Positions 15,481 through 23,930 of a stretch of DNA of 64,000 nt are shown one piece after another. The position numbers were made by a program, and so were the translations under genes. The notes under the pieces were generated by a model. That model ran no database searches. It was given only the letters and a program-made list of their open reading frames with translations, and was not told the origin of the DNA. Each line of letters opens with the position of its first letter. Within the stretch, counting starts at the first letter, position 1. Source of the DNA: the human T2T-CHM13v2.0 reference genome, Homo sapiens; assembly GCF_009914755.1 (NCBI RefSeq), contig NC_060927.1. One strand, given 5' to 3'.

Positions 15481-16485
15481 TCCATTATGAAATTTGACAA
15501 AAGAAGCACAAAACTTAAATTATGAAAACTACCCAACATTGCTGAAAGAAATTTAAGATCTAAATAAATAGAAAGACATCCCTTGGTCATAGATGAGAAG
15601 ATTAAATATTGTTAAGACAGCTATACTCTCCAAACTGATCTATAGATTCAATGCAATCTGTATTAGAACACCAGCTGGTTCTTTGCAGAAATTGACAAGC
15701 TGTTCTAAAAATTCATATGGAAACTCAAAGAACTCAGAATAGCCCAAACTTTTTTGTTCTTGGAAAAAAAGAACAAACTGGAGGACTCACTTCCCACTTT
15801 TGAAACTTAATACAAAGCAACAGTAATCAAGACAATATGATATTGGTATAAGGATAGACATAGATTAATGGAAAATAATTAAAAGTTCGGAAATAAACTC
15901 ATGTATCTATGGCAATTGATTTTCAACAAGACTGCAAAAACAATTCAATGGGAGAAAGTATCGTATTTTCAACAAATGATGCTGAGACAATAGGATCGCC
16001 ATATGCTGAGGAATAAAGTTGGACTCTTAACTCACACTGTATATAAAAATTAACTCAAAATGGATCAAAGACTTAAGTGTAGGAGCCAAAATTATAAAAC
16101 TCTTAGAAAAAATATTGAGATAAACTATTGTGACCTTTGATTTGCCAATGGATTCTCAGATATGACACCAAAAGCACAATGAACAACAACAAAAAGATAA
16201 ATTTAACTTCATTAAAACTAAAAAATTTTGTCCTACAAAGGACACTATGAAGAAAGTGAAAAGGCAACCCACAGAATAAGGGAAAATATTTGCAAATTAT
16301 GTATCTGACAAGGGACACATATCTAGAATATATAAAGAACTCTTGCAACTCAAAAATAAAAAGACAAACCAATTAAAAAATTACCAAATGTCTGAAAAGA
16401 CATTTCTCCAAAGAAGATAAACAAATGACCGATAAACGTATTAAAAGATGCTCAACATCATTAGTCATCAGGAAAATGCAAATGA
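15480..16485 (+). mobile_element. Old L1 (L1M-type) ORF2 3' region, left half
   Basis: Decayed ORF2 C-terminal sequence ending ...CTCAACATCATTAGTCATCAGGAAAATGCAAATGA. Confidence 0.88.
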
Positions 16486-16488
16486 GGG

Positions 16489-16593
16489 TGACTCTCTTTT
16501 TGGACTTAGCCCGCCTGCACCCAGGTGAAATAAACAGCCATGTTGCTCACACAAAGCCTGTTTGGTGGTCTCTTCACACCGACGCATATGAAA
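16489..16593 (+). mobile_element. HERV-H 5' LTR (LTR7), R-U5 only
   Basis: Matches the last ~105 nt of the 3' LTR (21857-21961) with 5 substitutions. Contains AATAAA at 16529-16534 and ends ...ATGAAA. Confidence 0.93.
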
Positions 16594-16595
16594 TT

Positions 16596-16613
16596 TGGTG
16601 CTGTGACTCAGAT
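16596..16613 (+). promoter_or_regulatory. Primer binding site for tRNA-His
   Basis: TGGTGCTGTGACTCAGAT versus the tRNA-His complement TGGTGCCGTGACTCGGAT. The two differences are CpG-type transitions. It lies directly after the LTR. Confidence 0.93.
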
Positions 16614-17019
16614 CGGGGGACCTCCCTTGGGAGATCAATCCCCTGTCCTCCTGTTCTTTGCTCCGTGAGAAAGATCCACCTACGACCTCAGGTCCTCAGA
16701 CCCACCAGCCCAAGGAACATCTCACCAATTTTAAATCAGGTAAGCGGCCTCTTCTTACTTTCTTCTCCAACCTCTCTCACTGTCCCTCAACCACTTTCTC
16801 CTTTCCACTCTTCAATCTCTCCCTTCTCTTAATTTCAATTCCTTTCATTTTCTGGGAGAGACAAAGGAGACACGTTTTATCCGTGGACCCAAAACTCCGG
16901 CGCCAGTCACAGACTGGGAAGGCAGCCTTCCCTTGGTGTTTAATCATTGCAGGGACACCTCTCTGATTATACACCCACGTTTCAAGGGTGTCAGACCACG
17001 CAGGGACGCCTGCCTTGTT

Positions 17020-17395
17020 CCTTCACCCTTAGCGGCAAGTCCCGCTTTTCTGGGGAAGGGGCAAGTACCTCAACCCCTTCTCTCCTTGTCTCTACCCCTT
17101 TTCTGCTTTCCTGGGGCAGGGGCAAGTACCCCTCAACCCCTTCTCCTTCACCCTTAGCGGCAAGTCCCGCTTTCCTGGGGAAGGGGCAAGTACCCCTCAA
17201 CCCCTTCTCTTTCACCCTTAGTGGCAAGTCCTGCTTTTCTAGGGGGCAAGAATCCCCAATCGCTTATTTCTGCACCCCAACCTCGTATCTCTGTGCCCCG
17301 ACCCCTTATTTCTGTGCCCCAACCCCTTATTTCTGAGTCCCATCCCTTATTTCCGTGCCCCGACCTCTTATCTCTGCGCCCCAACCCCTTTTCCC
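17020..17395 (+). repeat. HERV-H leader tandem repeats
   Basis: Three copies of CTTCACCCTTAGCGGCAAGTCCCGCTTT...GGGGCAAG, then about six ~20-nt CCCCTTATTTCTGTGCCCC-like units. Confidence 0.8.
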
Positions 17396-21527: not shown

Positions 21528-21961
21528 TGTCAGGCCTCTGAGCCCAAGCCAAGCCATCGCATCCCCTGTGACTTGCACGTATACGCCCAGATGGCCTGAA
21601 GTAACTGAAGAATCACAAAAGTAGTGGAAAGGCCCTGCCCGGCCTTAACTGATGACATTCCACCATTGTGATTTGTTCCTGCCCCACCTTAACTGAGTGA
21701 TTAACCCTGTGAATTTCCTACTCCTGGCTCAGAAGCTCCCCCACTGAGCACCTTGTGACCCCCGCCCCTGCCCACCAGAGAACAACCCCCTTTGACTGTA
21801 ATTTTCCATTACCTTCCCAAATCCTATAAAACGGCCCCACCCCTCTCTCCCTTCGCTGACTCTCTTTTCGGACTCAGCCCGCCTGCACCCAGGTGAAATA
21901 AACAGCCATGTAGCTCACACAAAGCCTGTTTGGTGGTCTCTTCACACCGACGCGCATGAAA
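21528..21961 (+). mobile_element. HERV-H 3' LTR (LTR7), complete U3-R-U5
   Basis: Starts TGTCAGGCCTCTGAGCCCAAGC after the PPT. TATAAAA at 21825, AATAAA at 21897-21902, ends CGCGCATGAAA. Confidence 0.95.
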
Positions 21962-22044
21962 GTCTCGATCTCCTGGCCTCATGATCCGCCCGCCTTGGCC
22001 TCCCAAGGTGCTGGGATTGCAGGCGTGAGCCACTGTGCCCGGCC
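21962..22044 (-). mobile_element. Alu 5' fragment (~83 nt) abutting the LTR end
   Basis: GTCTCGATCTCCTGGCCTCATGATCCGCCCGCC...GTGCCCGGCC is the reverse complement of the Alu start. The rest of this Alu is absent from the locus. Confidence 0.9.
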
Positions 22045-22129
22045 AACACTCTCTTAAATTAATCACTTTGAATAGTAAAGTAAAAAAAAAAAAAAAAAAA
22101 TCACCAGCTCATATTAAAAAGCCATTTAT

Positions 22130-22432
22130 GGGCCGGGCACGGTGGCTCATGCCTGTGGTCCTGGGACTTTGGGAGGCCGAGATGGGCGGATCACGAGGTC
22201 AAGAGATCGAGACCATCCTGGCCAACACGGTGAAGCCCCGTGTCTACTAAAAATACAAAAATTAACCAGGTGTGGTGGCGCGTGCCTGTAGTCTCAGCTA
22301 CTCTGGAGGCTGAGGCAGGAGAATCGCTTGAACCCAGGAGGTGGAGGTTGCAGTGAGCCAAGATCACACCACTGCACTCCAGCCTGGTGACAGAGCAAGA
22401 TTCCGTCTCAAAAAAAAAAAAAAAAAAAAAAA
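22130..22432 (+). mobile_element. Full-length Alu (AluS-type) inside the transduced segment
   Basis: GGCCGGGCACGGTGGCTC... dimer with A tail. Confidence 0.93.
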
Positions 22433-23226
22433 CTCATTCATAATCCGACCTTTACCTCCTTTACCTAAATATGTTCAGCTTCACCTGTCCCTCATTCCAG
22501 CCTCTTATTTCTCAGCTTTACCGAACTTATATCAATATTTCTCAGAGATGAATGAATTTTCATGCTTTCATGTCTTTTTTCTTCTCACCCAGAATGCTCC
22601 TTATTTTCTCTCCGAGTCGTGGACTCTATGCCTGCTCATGTGTCAAGACGTAGCTCAACTTCCAACTTCACTAAAATTATCAACCTCACGGTGGGTTCTC
22701 AGCTAGAGTTAGGCCTTCCCATAGCTCTAAATCTCTAGCACTTAACAGACAACATTTTAGATAGTTGGTTTTGCATTCATTGTCTTTATTGGAGTGAAAG
22801 CTTTCTAAAGAAAAGGAAGGTACCTAAATATTTAACAGATGTATCAATACCTAAGACTAGACTATGCAAGTGGCTCTCCTGGGTGAATTAATAAATACTC
22901 AAATAAATACTTGAATGAAGAGAAGAGCCAAGGAGCACCCACGCCAGAATATTCGAGAAAAGTATTTGATAAGATCATTTTGCAAGAGTTTATGAGGTAT
23001 ATCCAGGAAACACATATTAAATGCTATTTGACCACAGATTCCATAAAATTATGCAGAGAAAAAAAGAATTATAGATCGAGAACTTCTCCAACAATTTCTG
23101 ATGATCTGGTGAAGAAATCAATGTCCACAGTCATGAAATAATAAAAAAGAATTCAATATATGACAATTATGAAATTAATTATGAAATTAATAAAATCTTA
23201 TTAAATTATGAAATTAAAAAAAAAAA

Positions 23227-23930
23227 GAAAATGCAAATGAAAACCCCAGTAAACTACTACCTCACGCACACTAGGAAGTCTATAATAAAAAAGTCAGTAA
23301 ATGTTGGTGAGGATATAGAAGCCTCATACATGCTTATGGGAATGTAAAAAGGTCCTCAAAAAATTAAAGATAGAGTTATCAAATGATATAGCAATTCCAC
23401 ATCAGTGTATACCTAAGAGAAATGAAAACATGTCTATGCAAAGACTTGTACAGAAATGAGCATAATGGCATTAGTTATAATACCTAATGTGTGTAAACAG
23501 CTCAAATGTCCATCAACTGATGAATGGATGAACATTTGTATTTCCATGCAATGAAATATTACTCAGCTATAAAATTGAATGAAGCATTGATACATGCCAC
23601 AACATGGATGAATCTTGAAACAGTATGCTAGTCATAAAATATCACATATTATATGATTCCATTTATATGAATTGTCCAGAAAAGACAAATCTATAAATGA
23701 TAGAAAATAGATTAGTGGTTGTCTAGGGCTGGGTAGGGAGTGGAGATGAATGTTTGGGGGTTGATAGCTAACGAATATGGGTTTTCTGTTTGAGGAGATG
23801 AAAGTGTCCTAAAATTTACCATCATGATGGCTGCACATATCTATTAGTATACTAAATATCATTCCATTGTACACTATAAATAGATAAATCATGTGGTATA
23901 TGATTATATATAAATAAAGCTGTTACAAAA
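23227..23930 (+). mobile_element. Old L1 (L1MB-like), right half with 3' UTR
   Basis: Continues GAAAATGCAAATGAAAACCCCAGT...ATGTTGGTGAGGAT... to AATAAAGCTGTT, colinear with the left half. Confidence 0.88.

What the first reader, a model, noticed from the sequence alone, without database searches (positions are those of the whole stretch)
16472..23240. Apparent HERV-H provirus is an L1-made retrocopy of a full-length, read-through HERV-H RNA
Seen in sequence: (1) a perfect 14-bp direct repeat GAAAATGCAAATGA at 16472-16485 and 23227-23240, with the host L1 resuming colinearly after it; (2) the 5' LTR has no U3 and begins at the position 30-32 nt downstream of the TATA box as mapped on the 3' LTR; (3) the insert ends in AATAAA, 21 nt, then A11; (4) there is no short integrase-type TSD around the LTRs. 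Established: retroviral integration regenerates two full LTRs with 4-6 bp TSDs, whereas L1 target-primed reverse transcription gives longer TSDs and a poly(A). Such retrocopies are well known for HERV-W, where they normally end at R of the 3' LTR. Inference: a 6.7-kb unspliced HERV-H transcript was copied in trans by L1 ORF2p. Repeat annotation would present it as an ordinary provirus with a truncated LTR. I cannot tell whether this locus has already been described.
Basis: partly seen in the sequence, partly recalled or inferred. Interest (0 to 1): 0.9.

Follow-up and report, generated by a model that had tools for sequence, protein, structure and literature searches.

The report
L1-made retrocopy of run-on HERV-H RNA
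What looks like an ordinary ancient retrovirus insertion on human chromosome 3 is really a copy of a run-on RNA from a provirus on chromosome 17, pasted in by the L1 jumping-gene machinery, and dozens of other L1-made copies of this virus family lie elsewhere in the genome.

Summary
I also found the source locus. Window 16486-23226 (6741 nt) is collinear at 96.6% with T2T chr17:35129839-35136560.

- **Source on chr17:** a HERV-H provirus with a complete 5' LTR, sitting in a once-intact Alu with a 5-bp integrase duplication, GTCTC.
- **The chr3 copy:** it starts about 30 nt after the TATA box, with extra G at its 5' end. It keeps the whole 3' LTR and runs 1.27 kb into the chr17 flank. It ends 21 nt after an AATAAA in an A11 run that chr17 lacks, and it is flanked by a 14-bp duplication inside an old L1.
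- **Age:** divergence of 2.6% suggests roughly 6-13 My, on rates I assumed.
- **A wider class:** 41 loci end in LTR7-type R plus poly(A) (reversed-pattern control 0 and 1). Seven of 29 examined have 12-22 bp duplications, six of them well supported.
- **Literature:** the papers I could search name only HERV-W as copied by L1.
- **Not tested:** no ape genomes were available.

The parts
15814..16471 (+). Host element: old L1 (ORF2 region), part to the left of the insertion
   Evidence: Matches other L1 copies at 66-82% identity.
16472..16485 (+). 5' target-site duplication, GAAAATGCAAATGA
16486..16488 (+). GGG at the 5' end of the copy. Read as one extra (untemplated) G plus GC with a C>G change, or as 2-3 extra G.
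   Evidence: The chr17 5' LTR reads TGC here. Of 15 other HERV-H copies that lack U3, 13 carry an extra G before GCTGACTC.
16489..16593 (+). R-U5 only (no U3): the 5' end of the transcript
   Evidence: 95% identical to 21857-21961 and aligned to the chr17 5' LTR.
16594..21527 (+). HERV-H internal region, unspliced relative to the source and decayed. It holds a gag zinc-knuckle remnant at 18279-18695 and an RT remnant at 19038-19532. The longest open frame is 165 aa.
   Evidence: Collinear with chr17; ORFs; Pfam zf-CCHC at 2e-07 and RVT_1 at 9e-06, the latter below the curated cutoff.
21528..21961 (+). Complete 3' LTR (U3-R-U5). TATAAAA at 21825-21831. Its own AATAAA at 21897-21902 was read through.
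21962..21966 (+). GTCTC: the downstream copy of the integrase duplication of the chr17 provirus, carried along in the RNA
   Evidence: On chr17, GTCTC flanks both LTRs.
21962..22044 (-). Downstream half of the antisense Alu that the chr17 provirus split
22130..22431 (+). Full-length sense Alu with A-tail, already present in the chr17 flank when it was transcribed
   Evidence: The alignment with chr17 is continuous across it.
22432..23215 (+). Unique chr17-derived flank (3' transduced sequence), with AATAAA at 23189-23194
   Evidence: One other genomic copy, on chr17, at 98%; 11 substitutions in 784 sites.
23216..23226 (+). Poly(A) remnant, A11. The first 2 A could be templated; chr17 continues TAAAATCTGAATC.
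23227..23240 (+). 3' target-site duplication, GAAAATGCAAATGA
23241..23750 (+). Host L1, part to the right of the insertion

Best explanation
Window 16486-23226 is an L1-mediated retrocopy, made by target-primed reverse transcription in trans, of one unspliced, capped and polyadenylated RNA from a HERV-H provirus at T2T chr17:35129510-35135311.

The RNA started at the 5' LTR start site. It ran through the whole provirus, passed the intact poly(A) signal of the 3' LTR, and continued 1.27 kb into the chr17 flank (half an Alu, a whole Alu, and unique DNA). It was cleaved about 21 nt after a downstream AATAAA.

L1 ORF2p nicked a T-rich site inside an old L1 on chr3, primed on the poly(A), and copied the RNA to its 5' end. 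This left a 14-bp duplication.

Shown: collinearity with the source, both junctions, the duplication, the untemplated tail, and the start at R. Inferred: that L1 was the enzyme, that the extra G comes from the cap, and an age of about 6-13 My.
For: Source locus:
- The flank has exactly 2 copies in the genome, chr3 itself and chr17 at 98%.
- 16489-23222 is collinear with chr17:35129839-35136560 at 96.57% over 6761 columns.
- chr17 has a full 5' LTR starting 329 nt upstream of the point where the chr3 copy begins.
- The chr17 provirus splits one Alu with a 5-bp GTCTC duplication. chr3 carries only the downstream half.

RNA hallmarks:
- At the 3' end chr17 reads GAAATTAA then TAAAATCTG, while chr3 reads GAAATTAA then a run of A followed by the duplication. 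The tail is therefore not DNA-templated.
- AATAAA lies 21 nt upstream of the tail.
- The 5' end coincides with the 5' ends of independent HERV-H retrocopies: (G)GCTGACTC in 3 of 4 loci examined and in 13 of 15 pattern hits.
- One non-CpG U5 site is T in both 5' copies and C in both 3' copies. The two LTR ends were therefore copied as they stood and not regenerated as retroviral reverse transcription would do.

Insertion site:
- 14-bp duplication, with 0.07 matches expected by chance.
- Host L1 collinear across the site.
Against: - The inferred nick site, read from the sequence on the bottom strand, is TTTTC/CT. It is T-rich but not the canonical TTTT/AA.
- Only 9-11 untemplated A remain.
- The first three bases, GGG, need either a C>G change or three untemplated G.
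- No outgroup genome, no RNA data and no repeat-family annotation were available, so the empty site, present-day read-through transcription and the active L1 subfamily are untested.
- The LTR start site is supported here only by the shared ends of the retrocopies, not by a mapped start site read from a paper.
- The U5 site is a single position.
Confidence: 0.95

Rival explanations
1. The copy was made by L1, but from a longer RNA that began upstream of the chr17 provirus. The copy was then 5'-truncated by chance at the LTR start site.
For: 5' truncation is common among L1-made copies. One of the 4 class members examined is truncated, and 3 more were found.
Against: The end falls within 1-3 nt of the end shared by independent full-length copies. 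It carries extra G, as 13 of 15 of those do (binomial 1e-07).
Confidence: 0.03
2. A DNA-level duplication (segmental duplication or repair-mediated insertion) moved chr17 DNA to chr3.
For: Two collinear copies at 96.6% identity are also what a duplication would give.
Against: The boundaries fall exactly at a transcription start and at a cleavage site 21 nt after AATAAA. The A-run is absent from chr17. There is a 14-bp duplication and no extra chr17 flank on either side.
Confidence: 0.01
3. The element is an ordinary integrase-made provirus on chr3 that later lost its 5' U3, or it is a copy made by HERV-H's own reverse transcriptase and integrase.
For: Repeat annotation would show LTR-internal-LTR with a short 5' LTR.
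Against: No 4-6 bp duplication flanks the LTRs on chr3. The 3' 'flank' is chr17 sequence and includes the chr17 integrase duplication and the half Alu. A poly(A) and a 14-bp duplication lie 1.27 kb beyond the LTR. The U5 ends were not homogenised.
Confidence: 0.01

Closest known systems
HERV-W processed pseudogenes (L1-made copies of HERV-W RNA; Pavlicek et al. 2002; Grandi et al. 2016, PMC5016936)
   Same: The 5' end starts at R with no U3. There is a poly(A), a long duplication, and insertion by L1 in trans.
   Different: The family is HERV-H, not HERV-W. This copy does not end at R of the 3' LTR: it keeps the whole 3' LTR (U3-R-U5) and 1.27 kb of source flank. HERV-W structure is taken from passages in PMC5537654, PMC6298018 and PMC11359688. 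Pavlicek 2002 itself was not readable.
3' transduction by L1 and SVA elements
   Same: The element's own poly(A) signal is bypassed, a downstream genomic signal is used, and the flank is carried to the new site. That flank identifies the source locus.
   Different: The transcript is that of an LTR provirus with no L1 or SVA sequence, mobilised purely in trans.
Ordinary processed pseudogenes and lncRNA retrocopies
   Same: They show a capped 5' end, poly(A), a 7-20 bp duplication and a parent locus elsewhere.
   Different: The parent is a non-coding provirus, and nothing was spliced out of the 6.7-kb RNA.
R-terminated HERV-H retrocopies found here (41 loci)
   Same: They share the 5' start, (G)GCTGACTC, and the L1 hallmarks.
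   Different: They end at GCTCA(C) in R, 14-16 nt after the LTR's own AATAAA. The window copy reads through that site.

Membership tests
L1-mediated retrocopy (processed pseudogene) | Collinear with an RNA of a parent locus elsewhere in the genome | tested here: met
   16489-23222 is collinear with chr17:35129839-35136560 at 96.57%.
L1-mediated retrocopy (processed pseudogene) | 3' poly(A) that is not encoded at the parent locus, downstream of a poly(A) signal | tested here: met
   A11 follows AATAAA plus 21 nt. chr17 reads TAAAATCTG at that point.
L1-mediated retrocopy (processed pseudogene) | Target-site duplication of about 7-20 bp | tested here: met
   A perfect 14-bp repeat; shuffles expect 0.07. 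The host L1 is collinear across the site.
L1-mediated retrocopy (processed pseudogene) | Insertion at an L1 endonuclease-type site (TTTT/AA and variants; consensus recalled) | tested here: inconclusive
   The bottom strand reads TTTTC/CT, which is T-rich but not canonical (read).
L1-mediated retrocopy (processed pseudogene) | Empty site in species that diverged before the insertion | not testable with these tools
   No primate genomes were on hand.
Integrase-made provirus | Two complete LTRs flanked by a 4-6 bp duplication | tested here: not met
   The chr3 copy has no 5' U3, and its flanks read AATGA and GTCTC. The chr17 parent meets the feature with GTCTC on both sides.
HERV-W-type ERV processed pseudogene (R-U5 ... 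U3-R-poly(A)) | 5' end at R, without U3 | tested here: met
HERV-W-type ERV processed pseudogene (R-U5 ... U3-R-poly(A)) | 3' end at the R/U5 border of the 3' LTR | tested here: not met
   The 3' LTR is complete through U5 (21961), and the copy continues for another 1265 nt.
HERV-H | LTR7-type LTRs and HERV-H internal sequence, with gag and pol remnants in sense order | tested here: inconclusive
Pfam finds zf-CCHC and then RVT_1 in sense order, and many genomic relatives exist. The His-type primer-binding site at 16596-16613 is recognised from memory only.

The most novel reading that the evidence does not exclude
HERV-H may be a second HERV family that L1 copied repeatedly, not a one-off. At least 41 loci end in LTR7-type R plus poly(A). 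Copies that lack U3 share one start site and carry a cap-type extra G. This has gone unremarked because repeat annotation shows such copies as proviruses with short LTRs. The window copy is the one case seen here in which read-through carried flank along, so its parent provirus can be named. Each such copy also moved a complete LTR7 promoter to a new place by a route that does not use integrase.
Probability: 0.4. Interest if true: 0.6.

Novelty: new variant of a known kind. Interest (0 to 1): 0.5.

Why it matters
The mechanism itself, L1 copying a polyadenylated RNA in trans, is textbook. Three things go beyond that.

1. **L1 copying is not confined to HERV-W.** The papers I could read name HERV-W as the only HERV group mobilised by L1 (abstract of PMC5537654; passages). 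A survey of 3173 HERV chains states that processed pseudogenes were not separated from proviruses (PMC4724089). HERV-H retrocopies would distort provirus counts, ages based on LTR divergence, and inferences about how the family spread.
2. **The parent can be named.** The transduced flank identifies it. This shows that a particular young chr17 provirus was transcribed from its own LTR, with read-through, in cells that contribute to the germ line. That fits the known embryonic expression of HERV-H.
3. **A promoter was moved.** The copy delivered a complete LTR7 to a site about 17 kb beyond the 3' end of PLD1.

Tried and rejected
- **Earlier scan notes:** The search of earlier findings was not usable.
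- **Key papers not read:** Pavlicek et al. 2002 (PMC155283) is not held. I could not read Belshaw 2005, Jern 2004 or Goodchild 1995 either, and any of them may mention HERV-H retrocopies.
- **Supplements:** I opened none. Those of PMC5016936 and PMC4724089 may list HERV-H elements that lack U3.
- **Literature searches:** eight searches found no paper describing HERV-H processed pseudogenes. The exact phrases gave 0 papers.
- **Upstream sequence for 20 class members:** Only 4 and then 3 loci were fetched.
- **TSD scan:** of the 29 loci, 4 gave non-significant or low-complexity matches (L015 7/200, L034 6/200, L049 an A-run). 22 gave none within the 1.5 kb held; three of those are full-length copies whose TSDs were found further upstream, and a fourth (L013) has its TSD behind a complex tail.
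- **Search for a second read-through copy:** of the 10 R-start copies with unknown 3' ends, I examined 3, and none was a long read-through copy. One is an R...R copy with a degenerate tail, one is an inverted R-U5 pair, and one is R-U5 plus an Alu piece plus A16.
- **Coding function:** rejected, because the longest frame is 165 aa.
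Full report
**Observation**

The 14-base string GAAAATGCAAATGA occurs exactly at 16472-16485 and 23227-23240. With up to one mismatch allowed, the window has three matches against a shuffle mean of 0.07. 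The third match, at 10476-10489 on the minus strand, is the same position in another L1 copy.

Between the repeats lie 6741 nt. They are laid out as follows:
- R-U5 lies at 16489-16593. It matches only the last 105 nt of the 3' LTR (21857-21961) at 95%.
- The HERV-H internal region comes next.
- A complete LTR follows at 21528-21961.
- Then come 1265 nt of non-HERV sequence, which end in AATAAA (23189-23194), 21 nt and A11.

TATAAAA sits at 21825-21831, so the copy begins 29-32 nt after the first T of the TATA box. The five bases outside the two LTR ends differ (AATGA and GTCTC), so there is no integrase-type duplication.

The host is an old L1 and it is collinear across the site. Two other L1 copies in the window read left flank, one copy of the 14-mer, then right flank. 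Of five L1 copies taken from other chromosomes, two bridge the junction with the 14-mer counted once, and three resume further 3' in the same order.

**The source locus**

I searched the window's own assembly with 22430-23226. It returned two places: the window itself and chr17:35135768-35136560 at 98%. After fetching 15 kb there, BLAST showed window 16489-23222 collinear with chr17:35129839-35136560 at 96.57% over 6761 columns. The window's 3' LTR also matches chr17:35129510-35129942, which is a complete 5' LTR reaching 329 nt further upstream than the chr3 copy.

The junctions show which locus is the parent:
- On chr17 the provirus is flanked by GTCTC on both sides and splits a single antisense Alu. 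Read as sense Alu, the right flank ends ...GAGATCGAGAC and the left flank continues GAGACCATCC..., as in an intact Alu.
- The chr3 copy carries only the downstream GTCTC and the downstream half of that Alu.
- At the 3' end chr17 reads GAAATTAA then TAAAATCTGAATC. chr3 reads GAAATTAA, then only A, then the duplication. The tail is therefore absent from the parent DNA.
- At the 5' end chr17 reads TTTGCTGACTCTC, and chr3 reads GGGTGACTCTC straight after the duplication.

**What this excludes**

- A DNA-level duplication would not begin at a transcription start, end 21 nt after a poly(A) signal, or gain an untemplated A-run and a 14-bp duplication.
- An ordinary provirus that later lost U3 would not be followed by the chr17 flank, including the chr17 integrase duplication.
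- Retroviral reverse transcription would have rebuilt two full LTRs. Instead, one non-CpG U5 position is T in both 5' copies (chr17 and chr3) and C in both 3' copies. Each end was therefore copied as it stood in the RNA. This rests on a single site.

**Is the 5' end the real start?**

Independent HERV-H retrocopies elsewhere in the genome, described below, begin at GCTGACTC or G+GCTGACTC. The window copy fits this as one extra G plus GCTGACTC with a C>G change, or as two to three extra G. That extra G reflects copying of the cap is recalled knowledge, not something tested here.

**Age**

The two copies differ at 172 of 6702 aligned sites (2.57%; 64 in CpG context, 123 transitions), with 14 indel events.
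- The unique flank differs at 11 of 784 sites (1.4%, exact 95% interval 0.7-2.5%).
- The two chr17 LTRs differ at 8 of 420 sites. The provirus was therefore still young when it was copied.
- The Kimura distance is 0.0262. With per-lineage rates of 1.0 to 2.2 x 10^-9 per year, which I assumed, this gives 13 to 6 My.

**Content of the copy**

No frame in the copy exceeds 165 aa. Pfam finds only a gag zinc knuckle (18279-18695, 2e-07) and a weak RT remnant (19038-19532, 9e-06, below the curated cutoff), in sense order. The copy is collinear with the provirus throughout, so the RNA was unspliced.

**A wider class of HERV-H retrocopies**

I asked whether HERV-H RNAs ending at the LTR's own poly(A) site were also copied by L1.

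3' ends:
- A 16-base stretch around the LTR's AATAAA, a short gap and A12 gave 116 overlapping matches, against 0 for the reversed control.
- Anchoring the pattern gave 33 matches at 32 distinct loci, control 0.
- A relaxed version (13 bases, A9) gave 44 matches at 41 distinct loci, control 0 forward and 1 reverse.
- All of these read ...AATAAACAGCC.TGTTGCTCA(C) followed by A.

What lies upstream (29 loci fetched with 1.5-kb flanks; the three chrX loci were not fetched):
- 17 carry HERV-H internal sequence, then U3-R.
- 12 show only an LTR or part of one.

5' ends and duplications:
- Three of the four are full-length. They start at the same R position with no U3, and have duplications of 12-16 bases with at most one mismatch, one of them a 12-base match.
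- The fourth is 5'-truncated and has a 22-base duplication with one mismatch.
- A scan of the held flanks added three truncated copies with exact 17-18-base duplications, matched by 0 of 200 shuffles each.
- That gives 7 of 29 with duplications, 6 of them well supported. In the others the 5' end lies outside the held sequence or nothing significant was found.
- Three chr9 loci share a flank and are probably one event that was later duplicated.

Approaching from the 5' side:
- A pattern for the R start not preceded by the last U3 bases gave 15 matches, control 0.
- 13 of the 15 have a G just before GCTGACTC (binomial 1e-07).
- 5 of the 15 pair with an R-poly(A) end 0.8-5.9 kb downstream.
- I examined 3 of the other 10. 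One is a 4.4-kb R...R copy with a degenerate tail and a weak A-rich 10-base duplication. One is an inverted pair of R-U5 pieces. One is R-U5 followed by an Alu piece and A16.
- None is a long read-through copy. In this incomplete survey the window copy is the only one of its kind.

**Comparison with what is known**

The mechanism is that of processed pseudogenes and, among retroviruses, of HERV-W processed pseudogenes. The window copy shares their R start, poly(A) and long duplication. It fails their defining 3' end at R, because it keeps the entire 3' LTR and carries flank along, much as in L1 or SVA 3' transduction (recalled).

What the papers I saw say:
- The abstract of PMC5537654 calls HERV-W the sole HERV group specifically mobilised by L1.
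- Passages in PMC6298018 and PMC11359688 mention L1-made copies only for HERV-W.
- Passages searched in PMC5016936, PMC6995185, PMC524368, PMC2853125, PMC5753468, PMC4862087 and PMC5775608 gave nothing on HERV-H retrocopies.
- Eight full-text searches found no description.
- Pavlicek 2002 is not held. I did not see several older HERV-H papers or any supplement, so an earlier mention cannot be excluded.

**Verdict**

The event itself is an ordinary L1 reaction acting on an unusual template. The structure (read-through, with a full 3' LTR and transduced flank) is a new variant of a known kind.

The background class of HERV-H retrocopies seems under-reported. It makes up a small share of a family that, by my recollection, has roughly a thousand proviral copies.

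Interest is moderate, at 0.5. The outgroup test and a complete census remain to be done.

Noticed in passing
Genome-wide (G000): 41 distinct places listed, e.g. C2:199736671, C6:81691224, C8:89865188, C16:68767060: LTR7-type R ends at GCTCA(C) and runs straight into poly(A) of 9-33 A. The strict pattern gave 33 matches at 32 loci (control 0/0). The relaxed pattern gave 44 matches at 41 loci (control 0/1). Of 29 loci examined, 17 carry HERV-H internal sequence upstream, and 7 have 12-22 bp duplications, 6 of them well supported. The three chrX loci were not fetched.
   Followed up: partly
G000, 15 places, e.g. C8:89870445, C16:68772975, C22:28203620: In HERV-H copies whose R start is not preceded by U3, 13 of 15 have a G directly before GCTGACTC (binomial 1e-07). 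The three full LTRs compared read T or C there. This looks like the extra G that L1 copying adds at capped 5' ends; the cap explanation is recalled, not tested.
   Followed up: partly
G000 C12:113998709-113999527; C3:110289192-110291613; C22:28203620-28206451 (L055): An R start and an R-poly(A) end lie only 0.8, 2.4 and 2.8 kb apart. In L055 the window-equivalent position 18773 joins 21380. These may be copies of spliced or internally deleted HERV-H RNAs.
   Followed up: no
L062 (G000 C19:42779082-42788081), positions 103-319: R-U5 of about 105 nt, with extra G, is followed directly by a partial Alu and A16. It may be a very short read-through retrocopy. No clear duplication was seen.
   Followed up: partly
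L060 (G000 C3:90149441-90158440), positions 1-212: Two R-U5 pieces lie head to head in inverted orientation near the chr3 centromere.
   Followed up: no
L039, L040, L041 (G000 C9:42.41M, 47.59M, 77.28M): Three R-poly(A) loci share nearly the same downstream flank. They are probably one insertion multiplied by a later segmental duplication, so independent events number fewer than loci.
   Followed up: no
chr17 (L003/L004): 3' LTR near 35135220 and 5' LTR near 35129873: After the copy was made, the chr17 3' LTR lost 13 bp just after the start site; these 13 bp are present in the chr3 copy and in the chr17 5' LTR. The chr17 5' LTR changed CAGGTGAAATAAA to CA-ATGAAATAAA.
   Followed up: yes
window 17256-17411: A tandem array of 20-21-nt units lies in the HERV-H leader (family D1). 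chr3 has one unit (21 bp) fewer than chr17.
   Followed up: partly
window 10476-11152 (-) and 49158-49289 (+): Other old L1 copies cover the same ORF2 segment as the host L1. They served as stand-ins for the empty site.
   Followed up: yes
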